A stretch of DNA of 64,000 nucleotides from Callorhinchus milii (taxonomy: Eukaryota): NCBI RefSeq assembly GCF_018977255.1, contig NW_024704747.1:19468001-19532000 (forward strand), in the 5' to 3' direction. Shown piece after piece: positions 8,813-64,000 of this stretch. Position 1 is the stretch's first letter. Each line of letters starts with the position of its first letter. The notes beneath the pieces were generated by a model. That model was not told the origin of the DNA. It saw only the letters and a program-made list of their open reading frames with translations, and ran no database searches. Made by a program: the position numbers and the translations under genes.

Positions 8813-8819
8813 GATACTC

Positions 8820-9130
8820 TAATAATAATAATTCTTGCATTTGATATAGCGCTTTTCACGTCTTCTAGTCTCAAAGCGCTTCACACAATACATGGAAAAG
8901 GTGAATTGACTGTATATTTGTGGGAGAAACATGGCAGCCACTTGCACACAGCAGTGTCCCACAAACAGTCGTGGATTGAAGAGACCAATTTATCATTGTT
9001 TTTTTTTCTTGAGGGATTATTATCAGGTGTGTGGAGTAGGAAACTTGCCCAGGTTTCGACCTGCCGGGAATCAAACCTAGGTACCTTGCTTGGGAGGCGA
9101 GTGCTCTAACCACTGAGCTACAGGACTCCA
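8820..9130 (-). mobile_element. Full-length young tRNA-derived SINE
   Basis: Head ggagtcctgtagctcagtggttagagc, Deu 3' core and (ATT)n tail; same family as 40756-41082. Confidence 0.85.
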
Positions 9131-13320: not shown

Positions 13321-14699
13321 CCACACGTGATAGGGTCTCAGAGCACTTAACAATGATATAGTTTGACACCAGAAAGTTGAGGTGACATTTGGCATGGTCA
13401 TAGAGAAAAGACTTCAGGTGGAATCTGAAGGCAGGCAAACAGTGAAGGGATTGAGGCAGAGAGACGAGTGACTGATTATTATTCATGATCACAAAAGACA
13501 CGCGTGCCACGTGAACAGCTGCACACAGGAAGCCCTTGACTAAACTGCTGCAGTTCAGCAACATAATCAACTGAAATGTTTTCTTCCAATTATTCTCCAC
13601 TTCCTTGCTTAAAACAGGCAACAGAGCACAGTTCAGATCACTCATCATTGATATATAATTTTAACAACACCAAGGAAGTAGAGCTGAGGCGTTGAGAGCC
13701 CTTGTGAAGCTGGCTATGAGTTGTAGGCACTTGACTTGTGTTTGCAAAAAAGTCACACTTTTTTTTAAGACCTTCATTAGTTACTAGCGTCTTACTTGAC
13801 TAACAAGAGAATGGCGCCAAGCTTGGCTTTGACGAGAAAGGCTTGCTCAGAGATGAAACGCTTGGTCACAAAACCCAGCACAGTCACTGATGCACAACAT
13901 TTCACAATATGCCTTTATCTTGTCGATTATAATAATAATCCTTGATATGGCGTCTTATCACGTCTTCTTCGTGACGTCTCAAAATGTATACTGTAAAGTG
14001 AATGAACTGTTTATCTTTCAAGTCTTTTTCTACATCTTTCATTTCAATAAAAGCAAACCCCTAACAATATTTCCAACAGGCTCTTTCCCTTTATGTGAAA
14101 GTGCTGCAGAAGATGCAAATCTAACACTTGTGCAGACCGCATTTGCATTTCTGAAAAATTCAATTTCGATTTTTATGTTTGCTGTACAATAATCTGGCCT
14201 CAGATACGCTGCATGGTTTTGCACAGTTCCTTATGATGCTTTGTGACATGCTAGACTAAAAAATTATTTTATAGGAAGCCCCCTTTTTTGTAGAGCATTA
14301 AAACAGAGCATTTTCTGAAAGCTGCAAAGTCCATTCAAGTGATTTACTCATCTATACCTAACGTCACTAAATAAATAATAGATCTAGGCACGTCTATTTT
14401 CATTCTGTAAATACCTTGCGTCCACACAGAACCACTGAAAGATTGTTATATTTTTACTCCTGTTTATGAATTCATAATAACTCACCTTCAGAATAATTCA
14501 AAAAAGGTTTATTATTTTGCTGTGTTTGGTAGGTACTTGCCAATATTGACATTTATCTTTTAGTCACTGGATACACAGAGAACTAACTTTTTTTTAATTG
14601 ATCTCCACACAGATCAACACTTAAAAATTGGGAGCGCTTGAATCCGAGATTTAGTCTACCCTTACCAACTTGGCCGCTACCTTTGTTCAGCATGTTACA

Positions 14700-14972
14700 G
14701 ATACCCCCACGCCCCTCCCAATCTGCTCCATCATTGGCGTGTGGGCTTTCAGCCATTTCTGCCTCTGTTCCCTAGAACTGCATTCTAGAGTCCTTCCAAC
14801 TTGCTCCCTCTCATGTACAAGGTTCATCGCAAGACATACCTTTTTAACAGCTCTTTCGGTCACCTTTCTCTTCCCTACTCCCTTTAGCTCCCATCTCTAG
14901 CTTGGGTGCCATCAAAAGCACTTGGAGACATTCCTCCTGTGTGAAAGACACAAAATGTATAAATTGTAATGT
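14700..14972 (+). mobile_element. L2 3' fragment, old
   Basis: ccatcattggcgtgtgggctttcagcc, then the L2 tail motif. Confidence 0.6.
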
Positions 14973-16554
14973 AATTTGCTGGGAGCATTCTGAACCATTT
15001 CTTCTTCATGTGGCACAAGAGCTGCATTCTCCATTTAATCTGACCTCATGCTCTTCAATCAATGGTTAATAGGAGATGGGTGAACTAGATCTATATGTTG
15101 CTGGGATTCCACACGCAGATAATTAATGGTTGTGAGCAAGTTTAGGATTTTGCTGGTCAATAAAGCTCTATCTATCCATAAGGGTAAAGAGTACTGTTAC
15201 TTCCTAAAAAAAATTACTTGAAGCTTACATCTGCCACTGACTGAGGAATCTTATTTCTACCCCAGCCCCCCCACCAATGGTATATAAGGAGGAAATAATG
15301 TTTCTCAGGATGAAAGTTCTCAGGGGACTGAGTGAATTTGGCTTTGATACTGACTTTTGGCTCGTCTTAACTAGACGCGATTAGTTGGCCCTCAAAATAC
15401 ACAGTCACTACTATTTACAGGAAATGCTGTGAACCCACAAGTTTCTGACTGAAGGCAAGAGCGCTACCAACTAAGCCAGGCTAACACCCATGCTTTGGGT
15501 TAGTAATGCAAGGATCATTATTATTTCTATAGCATGTTTTATCTGAATTACTGAAATTTACACATTTGCTGTGACAGGAGTTCAGCCTTTATACTCAGCA
15601 ATGGAGAAATATCCTCAGCAGCTTTCCATTTTGTTCAACAAAGTAAAAAGCTGTGCAAAATTCAACAATGAAACTGAACAAATTGGTTCTACAGACGAAC
15701 GATAAAGCCGCACATCTGATAACAAAGTCAACAATAAAGACTAATAATGCTTTGAGTGCTCACCCCACCCACCTTTTTATACCATAACCCAAGTAGGAGA
15801 GCAGATGATACATGAAAAAAAACATTGTGAATTAAGTGCAAAACTCTCAACTGTTGAGCTGGTATCTTGTATAGGAAGCACTTTATCACAGTGAAAATCT
15901 GAACGATCCAGTGTTGTGGGTGTTCCTGTTATATACTGTATTCAGCTGGGCCTGTCAGCTTTGCCACAGAAAACGAGACACACTTCATTGACTGAACTTG
16001 GTAGAAGGTGCTGCCTTTGGTAAGGCAGGCAGTGCTATAATAAGTCGACCCTATTTTTCTTGCAATAAGCAATTAAAATAAATCATTTGAGTGGTTAGGA
16101 AACATGTCATAGACTGAAGCAAAAGTTGATGGGAAAAGTCTGCTCTGCTTCAAACAACAGCCTAACCTCCAAGAAGCGTAGGTGGGAGGTACATGCAAAA
16201 AGTACCGACAAAACTAATAGCTCGACTATAATAAGCATGTTCTCTCTTGAAGAGCTGGCCATTTTTCTTTAATGGAAGCTGTTCTGTGAAATAGTTGTGC
16301 CGGAGACAAAAGGGAACATTCGCTTGAGTTAAAAAGAAAGTGTGAAACATCTGCTTCCTTTTTTCAGAGAAAAATATTATCGTGTTATCAATTTCCTCAA
16401 AAACCACGGTTCGAGCAGTGCCTAGCTTATTGTGTGTGAGATTTAACCCACATTCTACCCCAGTATGTGCTCACCTAGCACTTTTATCACGATTTCCTTC
16501 GGTTACACCTTTGCCAGAATTAATTAAGAATCTTTCTGTGTTTGTATTATAAAA

Positions 16555-17160
16555 AATAATCCTTGCACTTGATGTTGCGCGCTTTCACGTCAGCAGAGCA
16601 TCTCAAAGGACTTCACGAGATTTACTGCAAAGTGTCGTGATTGCTGCAGGCAATTTACGCACAGCAACGTCTCACAAATATCCATGAAGTGAATGACCAG
16701 TTTTATCTGGGGGATTGTTGCCAGGACACCGGGAGAAACTCCCCTATCCCTGGGATCTTTAAAGTTCATCTGAACAGTCAGAGGGAACCTCGGTTTAACG
16801 TTTCATCCAAAGTACAGCACCTCTGCCAATCCTTACATTTGATATAGTGCCTTATCATATTTCAAGAATGTCTCAAACACTGTAATGTCAGCTAGAGTAT
16901 AAGCTCAAATTCCCGACATGAGGCTTGAACCCACAAACATGAATCAGAAGCAAGAATGCTACCCAATTTTAAGGTCACTCTCAAGACCTAGTTCTCTGAC
17001 TCCATTTTGGTCATCTTTCCCCTTCTCATCCAACTTGGCTCTCACTCCCATCTTGGGGGGCAAGCCACTCCACTTTATAATATATCCTGTGATGTGCTTT
17101 AGGATGTCCTCCAGACATGAATAGGCGCTATTTAAATGTAAATTTGTATTATATTGTAAC
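16555..17160. mobile_element. Deu SINE (minus, 16555-16965) abutting an L2 tail (plus, 16970-17160)
   Basis: Family motifs as above. Confidence 0.65.
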
Positions 17161-17557
17161 TGAGCAGGACTGACACCTGTTAGTTAAAATCTTCAGTTAT
17201 TTTGTTACCTGATAAATAATAATAATACTTACATTTCTACATCCATTAGCAGCACAGACCCCAATTGAATTAATAAGAATCAAAGCATTAGATGCAGTGC
17301 TGTAAACAACATTCAACACAATGAGGTCCAACTAAGAAGCCTTATTGTATTCCTACTTTAAAGATATGGATCCTTGTTTCAGTGTTCCATGTAGTATATA
17401 TTTTTTCCATCTGAATTGTTTACAAAGTATGTTTCATTTGCAGATTTTAAATTACACCTATTCTTCATATCAAATGGCTTAGGAGAGTCCAGTTCATTTA
17501 TCAAAATTATACATTTGCTTGCCACATATATTCACTTAAGAATCGACTTGGTGGTTT

Positions 17558-18145
17558 CAGCCCAGCTCAGTTGGTGGCGCACTCCTCTCTGAGTCAAAAG
17601 GTTGTGGGTTCAAGCCTCACGTCAGGACTTTGAACTCACATCCGATCCCTGACCAAGACCGCCTTCCGCCCTATCAGCCACATAGCCCGTACCTTACCCC
17701 AAATGCAGCTGAAACCCTCGTGCGTGTGTTTGTCACCTCCCGCCTCGATTACTCTATCCCATTCCTCGCTGGTCTCCCCAGCTCCACTATTCAAAAAATC
17801 CATCTCATTCAGAACTCTGATGCCCGTTACTTACGCGGACCAAACTCCGTACCCCCATCTCACCAGCTCTGGTCAGGCTCCCCTGGCTCCCCATCACCGG
17901 CTCGGAGTCAGACTCCGCAATTGTTAAGCGCTCTGAGATGCTACCCTGTGGGGAGGGTACTTTATATATGCAAGTTGTTGCTTGTGGAACATTGCTGTGT
18001 GCAAATTGGGTGTCACATTCGCCCATATATATATATATATATATATAAAATGTTCAGTCTCTACTTTTACAGTATCTCTTATGAAGCACATTGAGACATC
18101 CCTTGTGCACGAAAGGTGCTATTCCAAATGTAGGGATTATTATTC
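17558..18145 (+). mobile_element. Mosaic: SINE head, L2 RT fragment, L2 tail, SINE core and tail with (TA)n at 18025-18047
   Basis: ORF 17630 contains PYLTPNAAETLVRVFVTSRLDYS (L2), flanked by SINE head and tail pieces. Confidence 0.75.
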
Positions 18146-18399
18146 GCATAAATCACGATTAGACTTTGTTTCGTTCTAGACAATAAAATGTCCTTTTTAT
18201 ATTTTTATGGCTTCATTAAATATTCATTATATTCCTTTGGTTTATAGCATGCTAGCTTCTCATACAGAACCTTGTCTCTGAACCCATTATAATCATAATT
18301 ACTCTGTTACCAGTTATTGTATATCCAGACTGGGTGGCATGTGTTTTTGTTATGGCTGCTAATTACATAAATTAAAGGCACCTATAATTCCCTCTAAAC

Positions 18400-19470
18400 A
18401 TTCAATCCTCCTCCACCGCCTCTCCTCCCACCTCAACCTTCAAGGTTCTGTCCTTGACTGGTTCAGGTCCTACCTTTCACACCGCCTCCACTTCGCCGCA
18501 GCAAATGGCTTCTCCTCCTCCGTCTCATGCGGTGTTCCTCAGGGCTCTGTCCTGGGTCCCCTCCTCTTCACCCTCTACATGCTCCCACTTGGTGACATCA
18601 TCCGCAGAAATGGGATAAAGTTCCCCATGTATGCAGATGACATCCAACTCTATCTCTCTGCCTCCACCCTCAACTCCAGGACTACTGGCATCCTGACCGA
18701 CTGCCTATCCGACATCAAGTCCTGGATGAGGGACAACTTTCTCCAACTCAACGTCAGCAAGACTGAGGCCCTCCTGATTGGCTCACGCCAGCACCTCCAC
18801 ACTCAACCTCACGAAGCCAGTCAGGAACCTGGGTGTTCTTTTTGCCCCTGAACTGTCCTTTCTCCCCCACATCCGTGCCATGACCAGCACTGCCTACCAA
18901 CACCTCTGCAACATTGCCAGACTCCACCATTGCTTTCCCAACTCTTCCCTTCACAAGCTGCAGATCATCCAAAACTCTGCAGCTCGTGTACTCTCATGCA
19001 CCAGGTTCTGCGACCCCATCACTCCCACCCTCGCCCGACTCCACTGGCTCCGCATCCCTCACAGAATCGAATTCAAGATCCTCGTCCTCACTTTCAAGGC
19101 CACCCATGGCCTTGCCCCCTCCTACTCTCTGACCTGCTGACTCTCTACCAACCTGCCCACTCCCAATCCCTCCGTTCAGCAGGCTGCTCCATGTCTCCCG
19201 CCCGACTTGCCCCTACCATCAGTGGCAGGGATCTCAGCCTCTCTGCCCCCACACTCTGGAACTCCGTCCCACAGTCCCTTCACCTCGTTTCCTTCCTTGC
19301 CTCCTTCAAGGCCATTCTCAAGACCCTTCTCTTAGATCGTGCCTTCGGTCTCCCACCCATCTCTGCCTTCCCTCACCCCTACCCCACCCCTCCCCCATGT
19401 TGGGTCCCGACCCCGGACGTCCTCCCGACGTGAAAGGTGCGCTATAAATGGAATTTGTTGTTGCTGTTGC
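18400..19470 (+). mobile_element. L2 LINE 3' portion (degenerate RT and tail)
   Basis: GVPQGSVLGPLLFTLYMLPLGDII, MYADDIQLY, IIQNSAARVL, LHWLRIPHRIEFKILVLTFKA; (GTT)n tail. Confidence 0.93.
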
Positions 19471-49320: not shown

Positions 49321-49596
49321 TTAGAAGTCTGTGATACGACGGAAAGCACCAACTGTGGCTCCGCTTGCTCCCCAATCACTGAATCGCTTGTATTCCCCAG
49401 GTCTAAGGAAGTACTGTTTGCCTTTGTAGTTGGGATGTTCGTAGAAGGTCCAGTAGCCATCCATTACATGGCAGGAGTGGATGTCGTGGTGGCGGAATCG
49501 TTCGTACACAGATGGGCAGTCATCCAGAAACTCCATCATGGACCCTCCCAATTCAGCTCTCTCGTAAACCTTTATTTTGTACGATGCCCCGCTAGT
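49321..49596 (-). CDS. CRYG: Gamma-crystallin A exon 3 (linker and Greek keys 3-4)
   Basis: Lies within ORF 49321..49623; TTTCACAG acceptor, TAA stop, 276 nt. Confidence 0.97.
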
Positions 49597-50652
49597 CTGT
49601 GAAATGAAGCAAAGTGTTTTCACTTAATATAAAATATGATACATTATCCTCCCCACTGGCACTCGAGGCCACAGCATTGTTCTCTGAAGGTCACAGAGGA
49701 TGGATGTACTGTTTTTTTGTTGCCTATTCAACTTAACTACCTAACTCTTAAACCACATCATTAAAGAATTCCATTTTCCCTAGCCTTCTCCCATCCACCC
49801 CAAACCTACTAACTGACACTGGGTTTTGGTTCCATCAGGGCCATTGGTTCTCTGATACCCAGTCAAGTGGCTATTCAGGTTAGAGTCAATGTGAGCTAAG
49901 ATCGTGAATGTCATGGCCTTTTCGACTTTTCGAATGTCGTCACAGCCAAATCCAACCCTGTTCTCATCCACCATTTGCCAGCAGTGATCACTGGATAACA
50001 ATGTGAATATTTGGATGAATTTTCCATTCCACAGCCAAGGGAGAGCTGGGACCTAACTCAGAACATACTTTGCATTGAACCTGAGAGGTTCCTGGTTTAC
50101 AGGGCTTGGTATTGCAACTCTGTGAATCAAAGGGGAATTATTTCCCTATAGTAATGCTCAAAATACATTTTAAGGATACGTTTTGTGTATATTGATTAAG
50201 TTAGCTTTGGTTTACACAACAAAGTGCAAACTTTATGGGCAATAATAAAATGTGAACTTAAAGTATTGGCTGGTAAAATAAGGACACATGTGAATAATTA
50301 TATCAGTTCACTTACATAGTTGTACACCCGGCATGATCTGATGCTATCATTAAAGCCCATCCAGCGCTGGTACTCAGGATACTCTCCCCTGGTCAGCACA
50401 TACTGGTATCCCATGTAATTGGGTTTCTCGTACAGAACCCAACAGGCACTGTCGAGGCGGATGGAGTTACAGCGGCTGAAGTATGACTGCAGGTCGGCAC
50501 AGTCAGTGCTGCACTCATAGCGTCGACCCTGGAAGTTCTTGTCCTCGTAGAAGATGACCTGCAGGATTATAAAGCTGTTAGCTAAATTGAAGCACAACCG
50601 GATTGAATAGTGAAACACTTCACAGAAAAGGAATGATTCTTACCTTAGCCAT
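49321..50652 (-). CDS. CRYG: Gamma-crystallin gene A (shark gamma-S1/gamma-M-like), join complement(50644..50652, 50316..50558, 49321..49596), 175 aa
   Basis: Exon 1 ATG GCT AAG|GTAAG. Exon 2 is 243 nt (cag|[20 protein letters not shown]...[10 protein letters not shown]|gtaag). Exon 3 is 276 nt (cag|[13 protein letters not shown]...[13 protein letters not shown]). Four Greek-key motifs and the classic 3-codon/81-codon/terminal exon layout. Symbol is family-level only. Confidence 0.96.
50316..50558 (-). CDS. CRYG: Gamma-crystallin A exon 2 (Greek keys 1-2)
   Basis: Lies within ORF 50298..50618; CTGCAG acceptor, GTAAGT donor, 243 nt. Confidence 0.97.
50644..50652 (-). CDS. CRYG: Gamma-crystallin A exon 1 coding part (MAK)
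   Basis: Minus strand AAAATGGCTAAG|GTAAGA, about 55 nt downstream of TATAAAA. Confidence 0.9.
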
Positions 50653-50705
50653 TTTGATGACAATCCCTAAGTTGCAGCCGTGTGCCACAGTTAGAAGAGG
50701 CAGCC

Positions 50706-50712
50706 TTTTATA
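50706..50712 (-). promoter_or_regulatory. TATA box of crystallin A
   Basis: TATAAAA on the minus strand, about 55 nt upstream of the ATG. Confidence 0.8.
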
Positions 50713-51154
50713 CACCAAAAGTTTGTTATTTTATCAAAGAATTCGAAAACTTTTTCCAATTCAGCAGATTCCTCCGTGACATGTCTTGCACTCTTTGCTG
50801 GCAAACACTTGACTTATTGATGCATGAAGTACAGACCAAGTACCAGTGTTTGTTCAGTGGATTTAGACATCCACCCACAGACAGTCACCATGAGAGGCTA
50901 CAAAGGCAACACCGTTTTCTACTTTCATTTAAAATATCAAGCTCACGAATAAATGGAAAATAATTTTGTTTGAAGCTGTTGATTTTCGTTGCACACATTA
51001 AACAAAGTAAAACATTGAGGAGGTTTTGAATGCTGATCCTTTTTTGTTTTAAGAATGAAAATTTATTTTTATATTGGATAAGCATGAAGTCACAGTAATT
51101 ATATCTTTTTGTAGTTTACAGTAATATGTGAAGGATTGTGAACTTTGAACTCTC

Positions 51155-51507
51155 GATTTTGAGCTCACAGTCTAGGATAACAAACCAATATTGTGTTGGG
51201 GGCATGATCCATTGCTGGAGGTGCCTTCTTTCCAATGAAATGTTCAGCCGAGGTCCCATCTGCCTAGTCAGGTGGACGTTAAAGATCCCATAGTACGACT
51301 CAAAAAGAGAAGGGAGTTTTTCCTGGTGTCCTGGCCAACAATTGGGCATTCACTTCATTACTGTTTGTGGAACATTACTGTGTGCAAATTGACTGCTGCG
51401 TCCACCCACAAAATACTCCGTTTCTACACTTTACAACAAATGCAGTGAAATACGTTGAGACATCCTCCTGCTGCGAAAGGTGTTATAACAAAAGCAAGGA
51501 TTATTAG
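51155..51507 (+). mobile_element. Deu SINE upstream of crystallin A
   Basis: ggaggtgccttctttccaatgaaatgttcagccgagg...ggtggacgttaaagatccca, then tail. Confidence 0.8.
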
Positions 51508-54420
51508 AAAGTTACTATTTGGGCTGATTATGATGGACTGATATTGCTATTTACCACTTCAGATGATTGACTGCAACTGGGCCATTCATCAATTGCTGAC
51601 ATGTTGCACAACTGCACAATGAATGACCTTTCGTCACTTTTATATCTAAAAATAAAAAGCGTGAAGTCATTAAAGTTAACAGATGAAAGATAAATCTAAT
51701 CACTGGCAGCATTTCCTGTACATTTTTATATGCGGTAAATCTTCAGTCACTGAACCATTCATTGAACACTTCTACAAAATGGTTTTGCTGAAAATCCTTA
51801 CCAGAAGGAACTGCTCAGGACAGAAACTGAAGGTAGGAACGGTTTAAAAGTGCTCGAGAACAGATCGGTTCCCCATTTCCCTTCACCTATTGCTAAATAT
51901 GACATTTGTTTAGTGTATGATTGATCGCAAAGGCTGCTTTCACACACTTCCTTGCAAACTATTACAGTAAAACAAGAGCAGCAAATTTCAGGAATGTCAT
52001 TGTTTGTAAATACTGGGTTTTGGCTGAAAGTCCTGAAAGGCCTTATAATCGTTTTCATATATTGTTGCCAAAATGCAGCAGTTACAACAACAACTTGCAT
52101 TTATATAGCACCTTTCACATGGTAGTGTCTTGGAGCGCTTAATAGTGGCGGAGCCTAATGATAAACCGGGGGGATGGAGGAGATGACCGTAAGCGTGGTT
52201 GAAGAGGAAGGTCTTTAGTCGTGATCTAAGGAGGGGGCACGGCAGAATTTAATTGGAAAGCGTTCCAAAGCTTTGGTGCATAGAGGCTGAAAATTTTGAA
52301 ATTTGCTGTTCTTGTTTTACAGTAATTTTTCCATGTTAATCCTGTCGTCATCCCCAGACCTGCTCTTTCAGCTGACAAGGTTGGGTTGACAACACAAGGG
52401 TCAAAGGCATTGACAAAGAGAGTTAAAGATGTTCACTACTAGCACTACACAGCATAATAAATTGATGTTTATTTTAATGTATGTTACAATACGTTTAAAA
52501 ACATCAAATCAGTCTAGAAGAATTGTCCATACCAAAGTTAGGCAAAGACAGATGCTGAACAACAATTTCTGCTTGAAAATATAGCCATATAATTAGTAAT
52601 AGTACCCAATTGTGCAGATCGCTGAAACAAATGAAGCCCATTGGCATCTGCCTCTCAGCCTGGACTAATTGGTGTGTGTTGTGTGTGTTACTAGTGACCG
52701 GAGAGGTGGATAACAACAAAATCAGCAACTTGTCCCAATGTTGTGCCTTTCTTGTTAAAGATCCTCTCAAAGCTTACTGAATGTTTCTATTACTCCTTTA
52801 ATATAGTGAGGGACAGCAATTTGCCTAACTCCTGAGTGTCTTATTTGTTGATCTGCAGACACAGTGATTGAGAGTATTCGTACCCATCACTGCCAATGGT
52901 GCCCATCAATGTCATTGGTGTGTAATCCTAACTGCTGGACTGTCGATGTAGGTCTTTATGGATTAACTAGCACTGTTCAGTCATAGCCTCCAAGTTAGTA
53001 TTAGTGAAACGGCTTCTCATGCACTGTTCCTCTACTATGGCCAGGGCAGCTCATTCTATTATGATACATCTGCTGCCTGTCTACAAGCTTTTATCCTCAT
53101 TACACTGCAGAAATATTTCCTCTCCACTATGATAAACCTGCCAAAATAGCCAATACACCCAAGCTCTTCAGCAGAACACATTTCTATACCATTCACTTTG
53201 GTTAAACTCACTAACACAAGATCTAACCCAGAACCATACAAATTTACAGTACAGACATAGGTCATTCACCTATCATGACTATGCTGGTTCTTTTCCACAG
53301 CAATCCATTCAGACCCATTTACCTTCCTTTTCCTTATTAACCTTTTCCCCATTTCCCATTAATCTACTTTTCAATGTACCTTCTGCAACTGTGAAATAAT
53401 TTCCTCCTCATCAGCATGTGACAATGACTTAACAAGCTGAAATGGCCTTTTTTCCTCACTTTTCATTCAAGGTTTTAAATGAGTTTCCTGAAAGGTAATA
53501 ATAAACATTCAAAAATTCATTCATTAGTGCTAAGGACCAGCAATTTATTAGTACTGTCTCTTGCTTTGATTTTACACGTCTACACGTTTTTGCTAAAAAC
53601 AGTGAACTCTGGAATGTCAGGCCCTATGTTTAACATGTCCCTCTCATTCATGCCTCAATCAAGAAATTCTATGAAGAAAAACATTTTTAGAACAAAACAG
53701 TTTGTACAATATGATTTGAGCCCAGTATAAAAAATGCTATTGCTATCACAAAGGATGACTGAAGAAAATTGACAACTTTTCTAGTGAAGTACATGCTTTT
53801 GAAAGTGAACAGGAATTTCAGTTTAAGTCAATCCCAAAGCAGTTTTGTACAGGTTATGCTTTGCATGAAAAATAGAGTTAGAGGTGCTCGACTGATCAAA
53901 GGCCTCCACATTCCTTGCAGAAATACGTCTGTTCCATTGATCCATCATAATGAATTGATTTAACATTCCTGGCCGTACAGTACCATGCGTCTTCCAGTAC
54001 ATGTCAGGCCAGACACGAGCAGGTCTATTGTTCTTCTGCCAGTACAATGTAAGGGCTGACATTCTCTTGTCTGGTCAAGCCACAGCTGCTGGCGTTTACT
54101 TTGAAGAGGGAGCATGCTTTTCTCCGATGTGCAAAGTAGCATGGCATGCATTGGTGTTTTAGAGGGTTTACTGTGTCAGTGCACACTTTCTTAAGGTTAA
54201 GAAAACGCGAAACAGGTTTTGCTGAAACCTTCTGGGCTCTGGATTCCGAAAGGGTTCTGATGCATGAAGGTGAACACAATTAATTCAGTTTTCGATTTGA
54301 ATTTCAAATAAAATTTTTGATATGTGAGTAACAGACACAGATACTAAACTGAGTCTCAGAACTCAATTTCCTCACGTCCCATTGTCTTTTGTGAACGACA
54401 TCATGTTACAAAACAAACGC

Positions 54421-54460
54421 CATACTTTGTTGAACAAAGCCATACTTTGTTGAACAAAGC
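54421..54460. repeat. Perfect 20-bp tandem duplication
   Basis: catactttgttgaacaaagc x2. Confidence 0.95.
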
Positions 54461-54649
54461 AGCAGGTGGGGTTCAAAGTGCGAACGGATGCATTTGGGGA
54501 GGAATCCATTTCAATCTGGATTTGTTCAGATGTCAGTAGGTGGGCAAATTCGAACCTCTGAACTGCTCGAATATAACGTTAAATGATATGATTAATTCTC
54601 CTCTGAGATGGAATCTCCCATGTATTTATATCAATTGCAGTTTCAGAGA

Positions 54650-54652
<3 letters not shown>

Positions 54653-54682
<30 letters not shown>
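54653..54682. repeat. (TC)15 microsatellite
   Basis: Read directly. Confidence 0.95.
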
Positions 54683-54687
<5 letters not shown>

Positions 54688-56031
54688 TCACTTCTGCTGG
54701 GAATAATAAACCTTGCATTTGATATAACACCTTTTACGTCAAGAGGACATCTCAAAGCGCTTCACAGGATTTACTATAAATTGCAGTGACTGTGTATTTT
54801 GTAAGCAAATAATATCTGATGTGAAAGTTTTTTCTCAGAAGCAATCCTTTCTCCCTTGACATTGGACCCCATTTTAACACAGTGGATATTATGGAGCTGT
54901 CATGCTAGCCATTGTGTTTAATATGTGTTAGTGTATCGACTGTACAGAAGCAAAGCCTTTGCTCCTGCTGTAGGGAAGTTCTATGTGGGTATGTCCTAAT
55001 AACATAAGTTGACTCCCTCTGCATTTGCATTGTTTGTAATTTACACTGGTGCTCTCACCCAAATGGTTGCAAGGATGGTGTGTGCTGCAAGTGAACATAT
55101 CACCAATGGTGCAGGAAAGGGTTACTCTATTGAGATAGGCATTAAAGCATGTTGATTGTAGGCTGGTTTCAAAAGAATTCTTGCATTGGAAAACATGCTG
55201 AATGTAGAAGATCCGAGCAACGTGTGGGGCGGAACAGATAATTGTGGACAGATGAGTGATCAGAATCAAAGTCCATCATCTGTCCACCTGCAAAACTATT
55301 TGTCTCAGATGTATGTCTTTTGTGTGGACCCCGGTCAGTAACATGGAATTGAATCAAGAGCCAAGTCTACTTTTATGTGTTGAATGTTTGATAAAAATCT
55401 TCAGTGGTGTTTATTGAAAAATGGAAGTTTGAGACTTTAATACAAATTGTTATACTGTCTTAGTTGGTTGCACTTTAGCCTTTGGGTCAGAAAGTGTGGG
55501 TTCAAGCCCCCTATCGGGAATTGAGATTCAATAGTTTCAGCTGACAGCCCAGTGCAGTGCTGGGGAGAGCAGTGCTATGTCAGGTGTGCAAGTTGTTGCA
55601 ATTACAACAACTACAGTAAATCGATTTTACGTGCTATATGAAGTGCAAGGGTTATTATTACACGTATAACCTCAAAATAATTGTTCCCTCATAACGCTTC
55701 CAGTAGATTACATTTTAAACAATGAAATAGCTTTAATTTACTCAGTTTAGTATTCATTTAAATAAACAGAACTCACATCCACCCTTCTGTACTCAAAAAC
55801 ATTCTTTGTGCTTTCATTTTCCCCTCTTTTCATTTACAAATAGACACATTACCTTGCAGTAAGTCCACAGTACATTTCTAGACCCTTGGCCAAGAAGAGC
55901 TACTAAATATGACAATATTAACAGTGCTTTTAAAATAAGCACTGTAATTTATACCTATGTGTCACCTTTAATGTAATTAAATTAGCATTTCAAGCGTTGT
56001 GCAACAATAAAATACCATTAAGGCTGATTTA

Positions 56032-56239
56032 AACTTGTCTCCTTGGGGCTATTTTTATCCCTATTCAGATATAAATAGTCTTCGGATTTCTGATCTATTG
56101 CCTTGTAAAATCACTTTCTCATTGAATTCAAGGGTGAATCCGATTGAAGCTTATCTCCTTGGGCTTATTTTTTCCACCATTCAGATATAAATAGTCTTTG
56201 GATTCCTGATCTATTACCTTGTAAATCACGTTCTCATTA
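56032..56239. repeat. Imperfect ~90-bp direct repeat, period ~117 bp
   Basis: ctt(g/a)tctccttggg...attcagatataaatagtctt(c/t)ggatt(t/c)ctgatctatt(g/a)ccttgtaaa...ttctcatt occurs twice. Confidence 0.9.
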
Positions 56240-56939
56240 ATAATCCGTTCTGTTTTATTTTAAGTAATTTAACAATGCAATTTAGATTGAATGAAAACCT
56301 TAACCCAACTGTATAAAGAAGCATCATTATAGTTGTTCAAATATTAATCTTTACTTCACCAGGCACCTAGCACTTAAAAGGATACTGTGATCTTTATTGC
56401 TGACAGTATTATTCAATAGGACTGTCCTCTATACTGCTATATGGGAAGATACATTTTGTAGCTTGAGCCAAAGGAGGATTGTATGTGAATGTGTATTAAA
56501 GAGCAAGAACACCAGTACTGGAGTAAGACTATCAATGCTACTGATGTGGCCTTGATCTTGTGAGATCACTGGGCTCTTGCACTTTACCTGCTCCCATTTA
56601 ACTATTCAGCAAAGTAAAGTAAATATTGTAAAAGATTCAATGCGGATTGAATGAACTTTTACACCCCAAAGTGACATCAGTGGGATTTTGTGTATATAGC
56701 ACACATGTTGAACGCAGAGGAAATGATATCAGCGATGCTTCCTGCACATAACGCTCATGTTCACACTGCACAGTAAGTTACGTAAGAGATGACCGGATGA
56801 CCAGGAAGGTGGTCATTTTCTGACTCAGGAAGATGGCTAGTAAGTTACTGGAAGCCACCTCCCATAGAGCACAGGGGCACCATATGCCCGTGCTATATGT
56901 AAACCAGCACTGCACCTTATAAAAAGTTGTTTTGTAGTA

Positions 56940-57292
56940 ACGCTGATACTCCAATACTCCAGTTAGAGCGCTGCATTGTCAGAGTTGATGTCCTTTGGAT
57001 GAAACATTAAACCAAGGTCCCGTCTGTTCAGGTGGACTTTAAAGATCCCACAACACTATTCAAAAAGATAAGGAAGTTTCTCCCAGTGTTTAGACCAACA
57101 ATCCCCCGGATAAAATTGGTCACTTGCTCACTCCATAGCCGTTTGTGGGATATTATCATACCCAAATTAGCTGCTGTGTTTGCCTGCAAATACATAGTCA
57201 CTAAACTCTACAGTAAAATTCCGTGAAGTGCTTTTAGATGTTTTGATGTTGTGGTGAGGCACTTCGCAAATGCAAGAATAATTATTACTATA
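56940..57292 (+). mobile_element. Deu SINE downstream of crystallin B
   Basis: tgtcctttggatgaaacattaaaccaaggtcccgtctgttcaggtggactttaaagatccca, then tail. Confidence 0.8.
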
Positions 57293-57557
57293 TTATATTA
57301 TTTTAGAGCAATTTCAAATTTGAATACTTGCTTAAATGGTATGCATGGCACCATGGATACTTTACCTACTCTTCAGAGAAACGTTGATCCAGGGGTAAAC
57401 CTAGCTGACAATATCCGTGCTTAACAGAATTCAAATGTATTTTGAAATAAGTATTAAAACTGCATGTGTGTCAACAATAAATATTTTGTGCACAAAGAAT
57501 CTACTGCACAGAAATTTTGCAGGGAAGACATAAGACTGAATAAAATGAAGTTATATT

Positions 57558-57563
57558 TTTATT
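57558..57563 (-). terminator. Polyadenylation signal of crystallin B
   Basis: AATAAA about 40 nt after the stop codon. Confidence 0.7.
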
Positions 57564-57601
57564 TGTGAATGTTGATGTCGCTCACAAGTTTCTGAGGCTG
57601 C

Positions 57602-57877
57602 TTAGAATTCTCGAACATGCCGGAAAGAGCCGATAGATGGGCAGGTTGCACCCCAGTCGCTGAATCGCCTGTACTCTCCGGGTCTCATGAAGTACTGGCG
57701 GCCTCTGTAGTTGGGCTGATCATACATGGTCCAGTAGCCATCCATCACGTTGCAGGAGTGGATGTCACGGTGGTGGAAACGGTCATAGACGGATGGGCAG
57801 TCATCCATGAATTCCATCATCTGTCCTCCAAAGTCAGGTCTCTCGTACAGCCTCATCTTGTAAGAGCTGCTGCTGGA
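57602..57877 (-). CDS. CRYG: Gamma-crystallin B exon 3
   Basis: ORF 57602..57856 extended upstream to a CTGTAG acceptor; 276 nt. Confidence 0.96.
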
Positions 57878-58855
57878 CTACAGTGTGGAGAAATATTTAT
57901 TGGAAAGATATTAATATTTTGCTAGAAAACTGAAGAGCCCTCAGTTATATTAAAATATGCTGCAATTAGGAGACCCTTTTTACTTTGTACAGTGCTGGTT
58001 ATTCATCACTATACAACATTCGGGGTCACATTTTCAATCAACATTATGGGTTTTCCTGTCAAATGTCTAACAGTGATCGACAGTTGCTCAGAAATAGATC
58101 ACAGGATTCATGAGCCTTTGGATAGATAAGGGTTACATTGCACCACTTCACGTGGAATAATGGAAGAGAAAACACAGCAAGAGGAGCAGAAAATTATAGG
58201 CATATTCAAATGTAATTTTTTTGCACTTATTTCCACAGGAATTATTTAAGATAAATAGGATTATTGTGGCGCCTGTAATCTTAAGAATCTTTAATCCTCA
58301 GTGAGCTTTCTACAGTTGTATTTAACATTGGTTCAATGAAGCCAGGGTAAAGCCAACGCAAATGAAGCAAATTCAATCAAATTTAGGTTTTTAAGCTGAA
58401 CAGGTTGAATAGTGCTTTTCTTCCCAAACCCTTACTGATTTTAAGATAAAAAAAGAGCTTAAGCACTGGTGCACTTCCACATTATCCAAGCAGCATTTTG
58501 TATTTACGTAGTTGTATGTACGGCATGATCTGATGCTGTCATTGTAGCCCATCCAGCGCTGGTAGTCAGGATACTCTCCCCTGGTCAGAACATACTGGTA
58601 TCCCATGTAATTGGGTTTCTCATACAGAACCCAGAAGTCACTGTCAACGCGGATAGAGTTACAGCGGCTGAAGTGGGACTGCAGGTCCTCACAGTCGGCA
58701 CTGCACTCATAGTGCTGTCCCTGGAAGTTCTTGTCCTCGTAAAAGATGATCTGGAAATATAACATTAACAATTTAAACAGTAGCAGTAATTATATATTGA
58801 TCCTAACAGTCGTGAGGTTTTTCCAGTATTACAAAGAGAGACCTACCTTTCCCAT
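57602..58855 (-). CDS. CRYG: Gamma-crystallin gene B (shark gamma-S1-like), join complement(58847..58855, 58508..58750, 57602..57877), 175 aa
   Basis: Exon 1 ATG GGA AAG|GTAGG. Exon 2 is 243 nt ([16 protein letters not shown]...SCRTYNY|gtaaa). Exon 3 is 276 nt (tag|[29 protein letters not shown]...[13 protein letters not shown]). All splice sites are GT-AG and the frame is intact. Confidence 0.96.
58508..58750 (-). CDS. CRYG: Gamma-crystallin B exon 2
   Basis: Lies within ORF 58391..58771; TTTCCAG acceptor, GTAAAT donor, 243 nt. Confidence 0.97.
58847..58855 (-). CDS. CRYG: Gamma-crystallin B exon 1 coding part (MGK)
   Basis: GAAAATGGGAAAG|GTAGGT on the minus strand. Confidence 0.9.
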
Positions 58856-58903
58856 TTTCAGCTTGGATCTCTGGAACTGTGTTCCCTGATAGCCATTACT
58901 GTG

Positions 58904-58978
58904 TTTTAATACATATACAGCAGAGTGCACTGCAGCAAAATACATTGTTATTACAATGAGATAAGTTTTGTGTCAGCA
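58904..58978 (-). promoter_or_regulatory. Proximal promoter of crystallin B: TATA-like element, inverted SOX pair, Maf half-site
   Basis: Minus strand TATATGTATTAAAA; CATTGT-tatt-ACAATG at 58943-58958; TGCTGACA (minus) at 58971-58978. Confidence 0.6.
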
Positions 58979-60430
58979 CATCGCTCATGCGATTACTCTC
59001 TGTTGAAATTCCCTAACTAACCACTGTGCATTGTTAAGCTTTTGTGGTGAAAGCTTTTTAAAGAATCAGATCAAAGTGCACATTTACAGCAAATAACGAT
59101 AGTCATCAAATTACAGAACAGATTTTAGACAGGAATACTTTGACATTCTGTGTTTAAGTGACAATTATTAACTTTCAAACGCTCCTGCAACTGCCTACAA
59201 ATTGCATCATCACTCTACTTCACAGTAAACCACCCTCAACTCAGGTGTAAACCTTGGATTGTTCAGCACCTTGGAATGTTTTCCCGACATGAAAGGCAAT
59301 ATAAAAATGTAAATTTGTATTGTATTGTTTACTAATTGTCGAGTACTGTTCTGTCACTGTTTACCTCTAACTGCTAATAGTAATGTGAAAGTTCCATCTT
59401 ATTGAAGAGCTTACCTTTACACCTCCCTCCCGCATCTCCCGTTTTCCCCTCGCTCTTTCCTCTTCCCCACTTCCACTCTTAATTCCTCCACCTCCACATA
59501 CATGTATTGTTTGAAAATATATCCACCATAAATAAAACCATTTTGTTTCGATTAGATTTATTCACAAACTGGAAGCAAAAAAAAACCTTCGTACTACCAT
59601 GGGTTTAGAAATGCACAATATGATCCAAGACACATTCAGTGACTGAATCACTCAGTGAATTGGGGCCTAACGACCATGCCTTAGGAATCAATGTCTGGCT
59701 CCTCAGTCGGGCAAGCTCAATACAATGCAATTTTCATTTATAAAGCATATTTTCACTCTGGAAGAATGTCTCAAAGCATTTTACACAGCTGGCTTGGCAC
59801 CCAAGCTGGGAGGGGAAACTGAAGAGAGAGATGGACGGCTGAGGAGAAGATTAGTGAAAGTGCGGTTAAAGAAGTACATCCAGAGACGGGCTTTGATAAT
59901 GGGATGAGTAGGCAGGGGCAGAGAGATTCCAGGTCCAGAATGCACATTGCAATTCTGCAACCTTCCCTGTTTGTGAGGGTTTTAACTGCGAAAATCCTGT
60001 TTGAGATTTTGTCCGTTGAGTAAAATTGGGTGAGGAATGCAACAAAACATGCAACTGTGAGGCCAATAATTTATTCTATTCATTAGTGTCTAGAAAGATA
60101 GAGGGGAATTTCTACTTGAGGTTTGCTCTATTTATGTAATGTTTCAGAGCATCCAGAAATCGGCAACTCGTTGAATTCAGTCTTAACTTTAAGGTGGGTT
60201 TTCTGTGGTTCTTCAAAGAATTTCCAGAAAGCTGGCTTCAATCCACTCAGTCACATTTACCTGCTATGTCCTCCTTTCAATTATTCATTTTTAGTTATTT
60301 AGATATTAGGTATTTATTTTGCTCTTGAAAGTTTTGATGGATTGTGCCTCAAACATGACACCAGACAGAACATTCTATATCCTAACAACCCTCAATGTGA
60401 AAACATTGTCCTAATCTCCCCCTTTGTTAT

Positions 60431-60776
60431 ATAATCCTTGCACTTGATATAGCACATCATCACATCTTCGAGACGTCTTAAAGCGCTTCACAGAATATGA
60501 TGTAAAGTGAATTGACTGTATACTTTGTGGGCGAAACGTGACAGCCAATTGCGCACAGCAGTGTCCCACAAACAGTCGTGGATTGAGTGACCAAATTTTA
60601 ATTTTTTTAAATCAATTTTTACCCTCCAAAGAAGAGATCCACCAATTGACTAACAATCAGGTTTCTACTTACTGCTAGATAAACAGAGGCGTGCGGAGTA
60701 ACGAAACTTGCCCAATGTTTCACCCTGCTGGAAATCAAACCCAGGTCTCTCTCTTGTGAGGTGAGCTCTAACCATT
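60431..60776 (-). mobile_element. tRNA-derived SINE, long variant, adjoining a CR1 remnant (60290-60430)
   Basis: Same head and tail as 40756-41082, plus an extra internal segment at ~60625-60690. Confidence 0.8.
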
Positions 60777-61419
60777 AAATTGATGTTCTTTCATCATGGA
60801 AACATTGAAACAGTGGAGAAAAGATTTGATTTGAATTTGATCATAGCTGTAAAGAAAACCGACAAGCTACTAACTTTTTTCTAGGTAAAGTACAGACATT
60901 GGGAGCCAACTTGCAATGAGGTCTGAGGGAATTCCTTCATAAGGAAAGTGCTATTATATCATGCTGATGTGCACAGCATAATTCTGGAGCTAAGCAAATC
61001 TTCTTAGCATTTATATTTCATGCCCTGTTTGGTGATCTGCAATATTTTTGTTTGACTGAGATAACTTTGGTCACTCTGTGACCTCATGATCTCAATATTC
61101 TGGAACAAGGCTTTGCAAATGTCATAGTACTTTCTGGATTAGGTGAGCAGGGTGCGTCCCTCCAGGGATAGAGCATGCATTCCATTCCAGACACAGAGCA
61201 ACACAGGGAAATGCCCATGTGAAAGTGGGATACGTAAGTGGAACTCTCAATCTGGCTTGGATCCACTTAAGGGTGGTGATGCAAATGAAAATGACCCATC
61301 AGAGATTAAACGAGAACAGATTTAAGCACAGTCAGTGAACATCTGAAGTTTTATTTTGTTCCAGGTTCAGGAACCTGCTGGTGCATTGAAAGAAAAGAAA
61401 GGTCATACTTAAAAAGCAT

Positions 61420-61425
61420 TTTATT
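61420..61425 (-). terminator. Polyadenylation signal of crystallin C
   Basis: AATAAA about 47 nt after the ancestral stop codon. Confidence 0.6.
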
Positions 61426-62149
61426 CGAAACAGTTTTCTGAGGGTGGGATTGACTGCTGGAATGTGACGGTTTACAGAAATATAAGAAAACGGAAGGAGC
61501 CAACATTGGGGGGCACTTGCACCCCACATGCTAAATTGCTTGAATTCCCCAGGTCTCATGAAATACTGTCGGCCTTCGTAATTGGACTGTTCGTAGAAGA
61601 TCCAGTAACCATCCATCACATGGCAAGAGAGAATATCACGGTAAGGGAAATGGTCAGGGACAGATGGGCATCCATGAATTCCATTATCTGCCCTTCAAAG
61701 TCAGGCCTCTCGTAAATCCTCATCCTGTAGTTATCACCTTTGGACTATAATTTGGCAACATATTAGTGAGAAGAAATGGCTTTGTCCGAGGTATATAAAT
61801 GAGTTAAACAAGAGATGATAAATGATTGACGACGCTTAGTGCTGGGCAGAGTGTTCAAACAGATATTTATTTTCCATCTGAGTATATTTTCCCATTCTTA
61901 TTTTCGTGCATGACGTTAGCAGCCCGGACCTCTGGAAAAATGTGGGAGGGTTGCTCTTTCGAGGACCAGTGCAGTTGGCGCCATACACATGTAATTTGTT
62001 GTTGTTGTTTACTCGAGAAGTGGTGGCCCGATTTTTCTGAACCTGTTGTCTGCTTCTAAAAGCGAAAACTTTTAAAAACAGTACTGCACTGCTAGGAAAA
62101 GTAGAAAAAAAAAGTGACAGCAAGAGGAATATTCACATTGCATATACAA

Positions 62150-62530
62150 ATCATTGAAATTACAGCACAGAAAGAGGCCATTCGGCCCATTGAGCATCAA
62201 GCTGCTTTACCTGAGCTGTATGCTCCAACCCCAATTCCCTGCTCATTCCACATTTCCTTAGATATTCTTATTCTTCAAACATTTATCCAATTCCCTTTTA
62301 ACTGTTATTGCCTTACTTTCAACAAATACCTCTAACGAAACGTTCCTGGTTTTCTTAACACTGCGTGAAAATATTCCTTTTAACCTCCCTCTTAACTCTT
62401 CCAATAATAATCCAGTAATAACCCGTAATAATCTATGTCTATATATTTTTCCAGTTAAGCACCCAGTGGAAACAATCTTTCAATATTTATCATCTCAAAC
62501 CATTTCTGGATTGTAAAATTTTCCAGTAGA
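62150..62530 (-). mobile_element. CR1 3' fragment in intron 2 of crystallin C
   Basis: tacagcacagaaagaggccattcggccc...catttatccaattccc. Confidence 0.75.
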
Positions 62531-62731
62531 CATGTTCGCTAAAAGCACTAAAGTACGTAGTAATTTAAGCTTTCGACCTAATAATGGTAATAATAATAAC
62601 TTTAAAGTTATCCCCGAAACTGCATGACTTTAAAGCAACTGTTTATTACGAAAAATGTCTAAAAAATCAGAAATGTACTGAATAGCGTTAAAAAACAGCA
62701 ACAGTGCACATCGTTAGGTTTGAAAACTCAC

Positions 62732-62974
62732 GTATCTGTGTGTGCGGCATGATCCAATGCTGTCATTGAAGCCCATCCAGCGCTGGTAGTCAGGATACTC
62801 TCCCCTGGTTAGAACGTACTGGTATCCCATGTAACTGGGTTTCTCATAGATGACCCAACAGCCACTGTCAACGCGGATGGAGTTACAGCGGCTGAAGTAA
62901 GACTGCAGGTCGGCACAGTCAGCACTGCACTCATAGCGTCGACCCTGGAAGTTCCTGTCCTCGTAAAAGATGAT
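62732..62974 (-). CDS. CRYG: Gamma-crystallin C exon 2 (open; missed by the ORF track)
   Basis: TTTTCAG acceptor, 81 open codons, GTGAGT donor. Confidence 0.9.
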
Positions 62975-63129
62975 CTGAAAATAAAAGTTATTTTACCAAG
63001 TTAAAAATAAAGCCAAATTGAAAAATAATTACAAAAGAGACTAAGCAAATTAAATGTCAGGTTACCTTTCCCATTCTGATACTAAGGAGATGGCTTCACT
63101 AAATACACCATGAGTTTGAGATTGGTGCT

Positions 63130-63138
63130 TTTTATATA
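63130..63138 (-). promoter_or_regulatory. TATA box of crystallin C
   Basis: TATATAAAA on the minus strand, about 55-60 nt upstream of the ATG. Confidence 0.75.
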
Positions 63139-64000
63139 TCCCTAAAACCTCTACAGTGGTGATAACGTTTGTTATTTTAATGACCCAACAAATAGCTCTA
63201 GTGCTTTTGCTATGAGCTTTGTAGAGATCATCTGACTAAAGGTTTTCAATCTGCTGGTTCTTTCTGTATCTTTCTTGTTTGTAATGTACCCAGTGTTTTT
63301 TAGTACGCAAAATGACACAACAGTAAATCCAAATAGTTACCAGTATAAAATATCATAAAGTCATTTTAGATGACTCAAGTTTTACATTGGAGTGACTGAG
63401 CCCGTAAACCTGTAGTTTCAACTATGATCAAAAAATCCCCTCTGATAAAATTGGTCATTCACCTCATCACTGTTTGTGGGACATTGATGTGTGCAAATTG
63501 GTGGCGACATTTCGCTACAAAATACACACAGTGACAGAATCCTAGAATCCTAGAAATTTACCCCACTGGAGGAAGTCATTCCACCCATCGGGTCTGCATT
63601 GGCTCTCGGACCAAGGTTCATTCAATCCCACCGCCATGCCTTATCTGCATATCCCTTCAAGCCCTAGACATTGTCCCAACATAAAAAGCGCTATATAAAT
63701 GCAAGTTGTTGTTTTCTTGAGGATGAGATTGAGCTGTTGCAGAACATGAGCGAGAATCTGAAAATTGTCGTCAACGTAGAATTGTTCCAACTCTGAACAA
63801 ACAGAAAGATGTTGACAATACTTGAGGTTGTTACGGTGTGGGAAGATCATAATTATTTCTTTATAAATTTTGTATTGATCAAGAGAATCCAGTGTGAGGG
63901 AAAGAGTAGAACCAGTCACACTTCAACCTGCTTAATCTTATATTGCAGGAACGCATGATGAAAGTTATACTGACCTTTTTTTTGGTCCTTATAAGTGAGT

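What the first reader, a model, noticed from the sequence alone, without database searches (positions are those of the whole stretch)
61472..61744. Third gamma-crystallin is frameshifted into a single intact domain with a hydrophobic tail; a second indel restores the frame too late
Seen: relative to gene B, exon 3 lacks GTCA at 61670/61671, so translation gives ...[29 protein letters not shown] (TGA 61616-61618), 126 aa in total. A +1 in the G6 run (61508-61513) makes the net change -3, but it lies after the premature stop. TATA box, exon 1, exon 2, all splice sites and AATAAA are intact. Established: stops in the last exon usually escape NMD, and truncated or frameshifted gamma-crystallins cause dominant cataract in mouse and human. 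Inference: this is either a recently dead and silenced gene, or an expressed N-domain crystallin with a 17-residue uncharged tail that could associate with membranes or aggregate. Further exon-3 substitutions (PNY>SNY, SDW>SMW) favour relaxed selection.
Basis: partly seen in the sequence, partly recalled or inferred. Interest (0 to 1): 0.7.

Follow-up and report, generated by a model that had tools for sequence, protein, structure and literature searches.

The report
Young broken gamma-crystallin gene copy
One of 33 tandem eye-lens gamma-crystallin gene copies in a cartilaginous fish carries a real 4-base deletion that cuts off half the protein and adds a short greasy tail; it is most likely a recently dead spare copy in a cluster that keeps gaining and losing genes, which is ordinary.

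Summary
The 4-base loss at 61670/71, TGA 61616-18, 126-aa product and extra G are in the sequence. Contigs of 4 of 4 other DNA samples (one study) bridge the deletion without a gap, so it is not an assembly error. The gene is the third of 33 loci in a 170-kb tandem array: 29 intact, 4 broken. Such arrays with pseudogenes are published for chondrichthyans. Exon 3 evolved mostly under purifying selection in the old frame, so the break is young. The tail's length and stop are inherited: 27 of 30 paralogues give the same 17 residues. Its hydrophobicity (KD 1.75 against -0.19 to 0.73) comes largely from C-to-T changes silent in the old frame; chance p is 0.004-0.07 by null. One asymmetry keeps the novel reading alive: exon 2 and promoter show no decay, while exon 3 past the break scores like a dead neighbour (p 0.08-0.10; an intact gene gives a stronger false signal). 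Verdict: young pseudogene (0.70); retained N-domain protein with tail (0.18). Expression is untested. The scan had not noted this elsewhere.

The parts
63168..63183 (-). Promoter element conserved across the array, about 30 bases upstream of the TATA box (SOX-type site by recalled consensus); intact, same as in sister gene g04
   Evidence: promoter alignment; coordinates
63128..63138 (-). TATA box
63066..63074 (-). Exon 1 coding part (Met-Gly-Lys), GT donor
62732..62974 (-). Exon 2, 81 codons, N-terminal domain (Greek keys 1-2), open and undecayed
   Evidence: PF00030 113.3 bits; branch omega 0.09; 170 bits against outside profile, intact range 151-175
61745..62731 (-). Intron 2, GT..AG, with two high-copy repeat pieces (about 61960-62025, 62158-62223); 3' end has a counterpart in organism B
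61670..61744 (-). Exon 3 first 25 codons: linker and first hairpin of Greek key 3, in frame
61670..61671 (-). Site of the 4-base deletion (three equivalent placements, 2-base TG microhomology)
   Evidence: bridged without gap in 4 of 4 runs
61619..61669 (-). Shifted-frame tail of 17 residues [19 protein letters not shown] mean 1.75, no charged residue
61616..61618 (-). Premature TGA, at a place where 27 of 30 other exon-3 copies have a stop in the same shifted frame
61556..61558 (-). Second TGA in the shifted frame
61509..61667 (-). Remnant of Greek keys 3-4, open in the old frame, no longer reachable
   Evidence: PF00030 60.6 bits
61508..61513 (-). G6 run (C6 on the gene strand) with one extra base
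61472..61474 (-). Old stop codon TAA
61420..61425 (-). AATAAA (a second one at 61350-61355)
57602..58855 (-). Neighbour gene B (g02), intact gamma-crystallin
49321..50652 (-). Neighbour gene A (g01), intact, last gene of the array on this side

Best explanation
This is a gamma-crystallin gene with a real 4-base deletion and a real 1-base insertion in its last exon, and it is likely a young pseudogene, lost at little cost from a tandem array that still holds 29 intact copies. Shown: gene anatomy, both indels, their presence in other individuals, the array, the inherited stop. Inferred: the copy arose with its neighbour g04 by an old tandem duplication and worked as a normal two-domain crystallin for most of its life; the deletion arose by slippage between two TG pairs and spread by drift; the gene has been free of selection for at most about 0.02-0.025 substitutions per site, under a third of the time since the split from organism B. 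The 17-residue tail is the family's built-in shifted frame, made greasier mostly by C-to-T changes that are silent in the old frame (a T at the old third position becomes a middle T, and all such codons are hydrophobic). If the intact promoter still fires, the mRNA would likely escape NMD (stop in last exon; recalled rule) and the short product would likely be cleared as a hydrophobic-tailed orphan (BAG6 route) or be diluted among the other copies; this is untested.
For: 33 loci in G000:C6 over about 170 kb, 4 of 33 broken (this one, g06, g30, an orphan exon 3) plus two exon-3 scraps. Exon 3 old-frame omega on its branch 0.42 (p against 1 = 0.03; against background 0.22 p = 0.10), core 0.29; 10 intact genes span 0.10-0.45. 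Pairwise with g12, codons 28-86: dN 0.209, omega 0.11; five comparably distant intact genes dN 0.16-0.19, omega 0.12-0.20, g10 0.31 and 0.48. One shared neutral phase for exon 2 and exon 3 is not rejected (p 0.28; p 0.08-0.10). 'Exon 2 close, exon 3 far' is also seen in intact g01 and g31. Same 4-base loss in silico gives 17 residues then stop in 27 of 30 other copies. 6 of the 11 inferred base changes under the tail are at old third positions, 5 of them silent there; their number is not in excess (11/51 against 28/186, p 0.29). Published: chondrichthyan gamma-crystallin duplication hotspot with an eye-transcribed pseudogene in catshark (PMC11979771, passages). C-domain truncations of human gamma-D aggregate (PMC10994683, PMC7549552, abstracts), which makes a useful truncated form less likely.
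Against: Exon 2 has no trace of decay (neutral phase 0-0.01 codon units; 0 private bases at codon positions 1-2), whereas the two older dead genes do decay in exon 2 (0.06 and 0.02; 14 and 9 private bases at positions 1-2). Exon 3 past the break scores 112 bits, below 28 of 29 intact genes and next to dead g30 (114.5), with the lowest mean BLOSUM of 13 genes tested, 8 private second-position bases, a second indel and five unalignable last codons. After the new stop omega is 0.61 (p 0.036 against background). The tail is more hydrophobic than all three nulls expect (p 0.004-0.010, 0.027, 0.067).
Confidence: 0.7

Rival explanations
1. The gene is alive as a half crystallin: the N-terminal domain (plus one hairpin) is kept by selection and the 17-residue tail ties it to membranes, or acts as a degradation tag that makes the truncation harmless; exon 3 past the stop is now 3' UTR and decays.
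For: Undecayed exon 2, promoter motifs and splice sites; exon 3 after the stop best fitted with a neutral phase of 0.06 (p 0.03-0.04 against none); tail hydrophobicity p 0.004-0.07; hydrophobic C-tails from new frames can be routed to membranes or the proteasome by BAG6 (bioRxiv 10.1101/2022.07.20.500724, passages).
Against: Asymmetry not significant (p 0.08-0.10), and intact g10 fails the same test harder (p about 0.001; 1 of 10 controls). Tail length and stop are inherited; the hydrophobic core is 15 residues with 3 Ser and 2 Thr and no basic end, marginal for a membrane anchor (scale values recalled). The tail was singled out because it looked hydrophobic. No such tail among the 108 proteins returned.
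Confidence: 0.18
2. The gene died longer ago; exon 2 looks fresh only because gene conversion from paralogues keeps overwriting it, while exon 3 is too diverged to be converted.
For: Exon 2 is 86-90% identical to most paralogues whatever their exon-3 distance; identical tracts of 60 and 53 bases; all 4 inferred amino-acid changes in exon 2 are to residues seen in paralogues.
Against: dS of exon 2 to the closest paralogue is still 0.22, to most 0.3 or more; dead g06 and g30 were not repaired; promoter motifs are intact too.
Confidence: 0.08
3. Both indels are assembly errors and the gene is ordinary.
For: The +1 lies in a homopolymer run.
Against: 4 of 4 runs bridge the deletion and 3 of 4 the run with no gap; three 'RNA?' runs do not cover the gene, but paralogue contigs in two of them keep the four bases, as expected.
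Confidence: 0.02
4. A cryptic acceptor at the first AG after the deletion (61587-61592, in the old frame's phase) lets exon 2 skip the broken part.
For: Branch-point-like heptamer at 61653-61659 followed by a pyrimidine-rich, AG-free stretch (sequence).
Against: No splice score could be run; the product would lack most of Greek key 3 and run into the +1 shift, so no C-domain results.
Confidence: 0.02

Closest known systems
Chondrichthyan gamma-crystallin tandem cluster (catshark 40 genes; clade of 26 duplicates in Callorhinchus milii; one eye-transcribed catshark pseudogene), PMC11979771, passages read
   Same: Dense tandem array, lineage-specific duplicates, broken members; shark 'gamma-crystallin S-1-like' proteins are the closest named relatives of the exon-3 remnant (67-77% identity).
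   Different: The passages read do not describe this locus or a frameshift tail; here 33 loci were counted in one array.
Human CRYGEP/CRYGFP pseudogenes (PMC3554465, passages read)
   Same: Largely intact three-exon gamma-crystallin genes dead inside a cluster.
   Different: Those are reported without expression; here the promoter motifs look intact and the stop lies in the last exon.
Primate CRYGN (PMC3554465, PMC9812405, passages read)
   Same: A gamma-crystallin gene with an altered C-terminal end whose status (dying or alive) is debated.
   Different: CRYGN is single-copy with a four-exon build, lost its stop codon, and has an isoform predicted to fold both domains; here no frame gives a C-domain.
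Cataract alleles CRYGD Y134X and p.Ala159ProfsTer9 (PMC10994683, PMC7549552, abstracts)
   Same: Last-exon truncation or frameshift leaving the N-domain and part of the C-domain; exposed hydrophobic surface.
   Different: Those are rare dominant alleles of one of few major genes; this one is shared by all individuals seen and is 1 of 33 loci.
BAG6-cleared hydrophobic C-tails from non-canonical frames (bioRxiv 10.1101/2022.07.20.500724, passages read)
   Same: Middle-U codons make hydrophobic tails by nucleotide bias; such tails are degraded or sent to membranes.
   Different: Shown in human cell reporters, mostly 30-residue tails; not tested for this 17-residue tail or in lens fibres.

Membership tests
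Vertebrate gamma-crystallin gene | Three exons: 3-codon exon 1, one exon per domain, phase-0 introns | tested here: met
   (three-exon build also in PMC3554465 passage)
Vertebrate gamma-crystallin gene | N-terminal beta/gamma (PF00030) domain | tested here: met
   113.3 bits, cut-off 25; best solved relatives are gamma-crystallins
Vertebrate gamma-crystallin gene | Open frame through a second domain | tested here: not met
   frameshift after codon 25 of exon 3; two stops
Vertebrate gamma-crystallin gene | Lens expression | not testable with these tools
   no run on record as RNA holds the stretch
Duplicated (unprocessed) pseudogene | Disabling lesion, real and shared by individuals | tested here: met
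   4 of 4 runs, one study
Duplicated (unprocessed) pseudogene | Introns kept, lies among intact paralogues | tested here: met
Duplicated (unprocessed) pseudogene | Neutral decay over the whole gene | tested here: inconclusive
   none in exon 2, weak in exon 3; fits a young death
Duplicated (unprocessed) pseudogene | No functional product | not testable with these tools
   needs lens RNA and protein
Tail-anchored membrane protein | Single hydrophobic segment at the C-terminus long enough to span a membrane | tested here: inconclusive
   best 15-residue KD 2.07, 19-residue 1.53; no dedicated predictor available
Tail-anchored membrane protein | Tail conserved by selection across species | tested here: inconclusive
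   organism B contig stops two bases into exon 3; no orthologous protein found

The most novel reading that the evidence does not exclude
A frameshift has turned one gamma-crystallin into a living single-domain protein with a new hydrophobic tail, kept by selection on the N-terminal exon while the old C-domain exon decays: either a membrane-tethered lens crystallin, or a cataract-type allele that could spread because its tail tags the product for destruction.
Probability: 0.18. Interest if true: 0.7.

Novelty: new member of a known kind. Interest (0 to 1): 0.27.

Why it matters
As a young pseudogene it is one more datum for birth and death in the fish gamma-crystallin cluster: minor. It has some use as a natural test of how a cataract-type allele (last-exon frameshift, intact promoter) can become common when 29 other copies exist. 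If the novel case held, it would be a gamma-crystallin that gained a new C-terminal function by frameshift, or a case of a degradation tag sheltering a toxic truncation; I found no such case (listings only).

Tried and rejected
Expression: no RNA holder listed among 24 runs; 3 guessed-RNA runs laid on exon 3 gave no cover of this gene, only one low-depth paralogue contig in each of two; no evidence either way, tissue unknown. Orthologue: organism B (X7, depth under 5) has a contig for intron 2 (24 differences in 178 bases) that ends two bases into exon 3; its two exon-3 contigs look by eye like other paralogues. Protein searches: exon-3 remnant gave 12 shark proteins at 67-77% among longer proteins and none among 29-93 aa proteins; exon 2 gave 96 proteins of 44-142 aa, none above 81% and none this gene; word-based, so weak. 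'Exon 2 conserved, exon 3 diverged' as proof of domain retention: rejected, intact genes show it too. Polymorphism contrasts (intron 2 14/987, promoter-to-intron-1 1/298, coding exon 3 0/129, after the stop 3/144): all p over 0.2; exon-2 variants belong to paralogues (8 of 8 match g04). Compensating-indel and read-through rescue: rejected, two stops lie between the indels. No fold of the 126-aa product was run (it is spliced; the folding tool takes contiguous translations). PMC1950927 (conversion in gamma-crystallins) was not held; one search listed nothing on crystallins. Supplements of PMC11979771 (gene trees) were not read and may list this locus; bioRxiv supplements were closed. Search of earlier findings by words found none. 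Codon models are my own code with fixed tree and scaled branch lengths; g06, g30 and the orphan exon were left out of the trees (30 of 33 loci used) and g06, g30 added singly as controls; conversion violates the tree assumption.

Full report
OBSERVATION. The gene ('C', g03) lies on the minus strand: TATA 63128-63138, exon 1 63066-63074, exon 2 62732-62974, exon 3 61472-61744, all splice sites GT/AG, AATAAA 61420-61425. Four bases that all 29 intact paralogues have are missing at 61670/71; the new frame gives [17 protein letters not shown] and TGA 61616-61618, 126 aa in all. The G6 run at 61508-61513 has one extra base. A second stop at 61556-61558 lies between the indels, so neither read-through nor the second indel can rescue the C-domain. 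In four DNA runs of the same species (one study, each with its own SNPs), single-copy-depth contigs bridge the deletion without a gap in 4 of 4 and the G run in 3 of 4. The lesions are real and widespread; contigs cannot prove fixation.

SETTING. The window is G000:C6:19468001-19532000 of a 992-Mb genome. The closest named proteins are shark gamma-crystallins; two earlier scan notes call the genome the elephant shark, which I did not test. Fetching 200 kb beyond the window showed an array from 49 to 219 kb past the window start: 32 exon-2 copies and one exon 3 without exon 2, so 33 loci; 29 have both exons open and an exon 1, and 4 are broken (gene C; g06 with no start or exon 3; g30 with a stop in exon 2 and a 2-base loss in exon 3; the orphan exon 3, dS 0.02, omega 1.17 against g12), plus two exon-3 scraps. 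Promoter, intron ends and 3' UTR align best with neighbour g04 (69-79% over aligned bases), so the two are an old duplicate pair. PMC11979771 (passages) describes this locus type in chondrichthyans as a duplication hotspot with high loss, 26 duplicates in a C. milii clade and an eye-transcribed pseudogene in catshark.

SELECTION. On 30 genes (81 and 91 codons; gaps at the deletion, extra base dropped) I fitted codon models of my own. Gene C's branch: exon 2 omega 0.09 (12.7 silent, 4.9 replacement changes; p 7e-5 against 1); exon 3 in the old frame 0.42 (p 0.03 against 1; p 0.10 against background), 0.29 for codons 6-87, 0.61 after the new stop (p 0.036 against background). Ten intact genes span 0.10-0.45 in exon 3. 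Pairwise, codons 28-86 against g12 give dN 0.209 and omega 0.11, close to five intact distant paralogues (dN 0.16-0.19). So most of exon 3's divergence was gained while the C-domain was in use, and the break is young. A model with a functional then a neutral phase puts the neutral phase at 0-0.01 silent changes per codon in exon 2 (below about 0.025 substitutions per site) and at 0.04 (0-0.10) in exon 3 codons 28-86; the difference has p 0.28 with one omega and 0.08-0.10 with site classes. Of 10 intact controls, one (g10, a very distant paralogue) gives a stronger signal (p about 0.001). Dead g06 and g30 do show decay in exon 2 (0.06, p 5e-7; 0.02, p 0.05). Against profiles built only from other species' proteins, gene C's N-domain scores 170 bits (intact 151-175, dead 126 and 134) and its C piece 112 bits (28 of 29 intact genes higher; dead g30 114.5; intact g31 115.2). 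The asymmetry points the same way in every test but passes none. Intron 2 differs from organism B by 24 of 178 bases (0.15 corrected), so under the pseudogene reading the gene died within the last third of the time since that split, if rates are equal.

THE TAIL. Removing the same four bases in silico from the 30 other exon-3 copies gives 17 residues and a stop in 27, nearly all uncharged; KD means are -0.19 to 0.73, against 1.75 for gene C. Length, stop and lack of charge are therefore inherited. The extra hydrophobicity comes from T at old third positions (9 of 17 codons; 2 to 5 of 17 in the 29 others), which become middle T in the new frame; all middle-U codons are hydrophobic (also stated in bioRxiv 10.1101/2022.07.20.500724). 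Of 11 inferred base changes under the tail 6 are at old third positions; C-to-T there is 5 of 10 against 4 of 22 elsewhere in exon 3 (p 0.10), and the total is not in excess (p 0.29). Chance of KD 1.75 or more: 0.004-0.010 under five stationary codon nulls, 0.027 with the branch's own spectrum, 0.067 given the observed number of changes by position. This is unusual but modest, the tail was picked for looking hydrophobic, and a young break leaves time for only a few of these changes after the shift (inference). The hydrophobic core is 15 residues with five Ser/Thr and no basic end: marginal as a membrane anchor (scales recalled).

HOW IT MOST LIKELY WORKS. A spare copy took a 4-base deletion (2-base microhomology; slippage inferred), drifted to high frequency under the cover of 29 intact genes, and has begun to decay; the order of the two indels cannot be told. 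The promoter element shared by the array and the TATA box are intact, so silence is not shown. A stop in the last exon usually escapes NMD (recalled). If made, the product resembles human cataract truncations that aggregate (PMC10994683, PMC7549552, abstracts); its hydrophobic end would fit clearance by the BAG6 route, untested here. I give this 0.70; a living N-domain protein with a selected tail 0.18; an older death masked by conversion of exon 2 0.08; assembly error and cryptic splicing 0.02 each.

COMPARISON AND NOVELTY. It is a gamma-crystallin gene by build and N-domain but fails the two-domain test; it meets the lesion and context tests of a duplicated pseudogene, while whole-gene decay is inconclusive. 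Nearest known cases: the catshark cluster pseudogene, human CRYGEP/CRYGFP and primate CRYGN (passages). Searches (listings) showed no paper on this locus; supplements were not read. Class: new member of a known kind. Interest 0.27; the novel case has probability 0.18 and interest 0.7.

Noticed in passing
G000:C6, 49-219 kb from window start (window 49321-63200, L031-L046): The array has 33 gamma-crystallin loci, all on the minus strand except one inverted gene near 212 kb; the paper read counts 26 in its C. milii clade.
   Followed up: yes
whole array: Exon 2 is far more uniform (mostly 86-95%) than exon 3, even in edge genes g01 and g31 whose exon 3 is deeply diverged: looks like domain-biased gene conversion or stronger constraint on the N-domain exon.
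   Followed up: partly
L036, L037, L041 (genes g13, g15, g22 at 119, 129, 164 kb): Three otherwise intact genes have a GC instead of GT donor at intron 1.
   Followed up: no
L034 (g10, 97-99 kb): An intact but very distant paralogue sits inside the array; its exon 3 after codon 45 fits a relaxed or very old lineage.
   Followed up: partly
L032, L045 (g06 at 76 kb; orphan exon 3 at 203 kb; g30 at 207-208 kb) and scraps at 82 and 164 kb: Dead loci of different ages; g06's exon 2 is decayed yet has no stop in 81 codons; the 82-kb scrap is inverted.
   Followed up: partly
window 61472-61489: The last five codons of gene C's old frame are all unlike any paralogue and T-rich; 8 of 15 bases differ from the inferred ancestor, or further small indels are hidden there.
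   Followed up: partly
window 61587-61659: Branch-point-like heptamer, pyrimidine-rich AG-free stretch and an in-phase AG just after the deletion: possible cryptic acceptor.
   Followed up: no
window 62684 and 61513: A 13-base intron-2 deletion in run X2; a G>A at the edge of the G run in X4.
   Followed up: no
window 8297-19430: Several open stretches of 130-217 codons that read like decayed LINE reverse-transcriptase pieces (recalled motif resemblance only).
   Followed up: no
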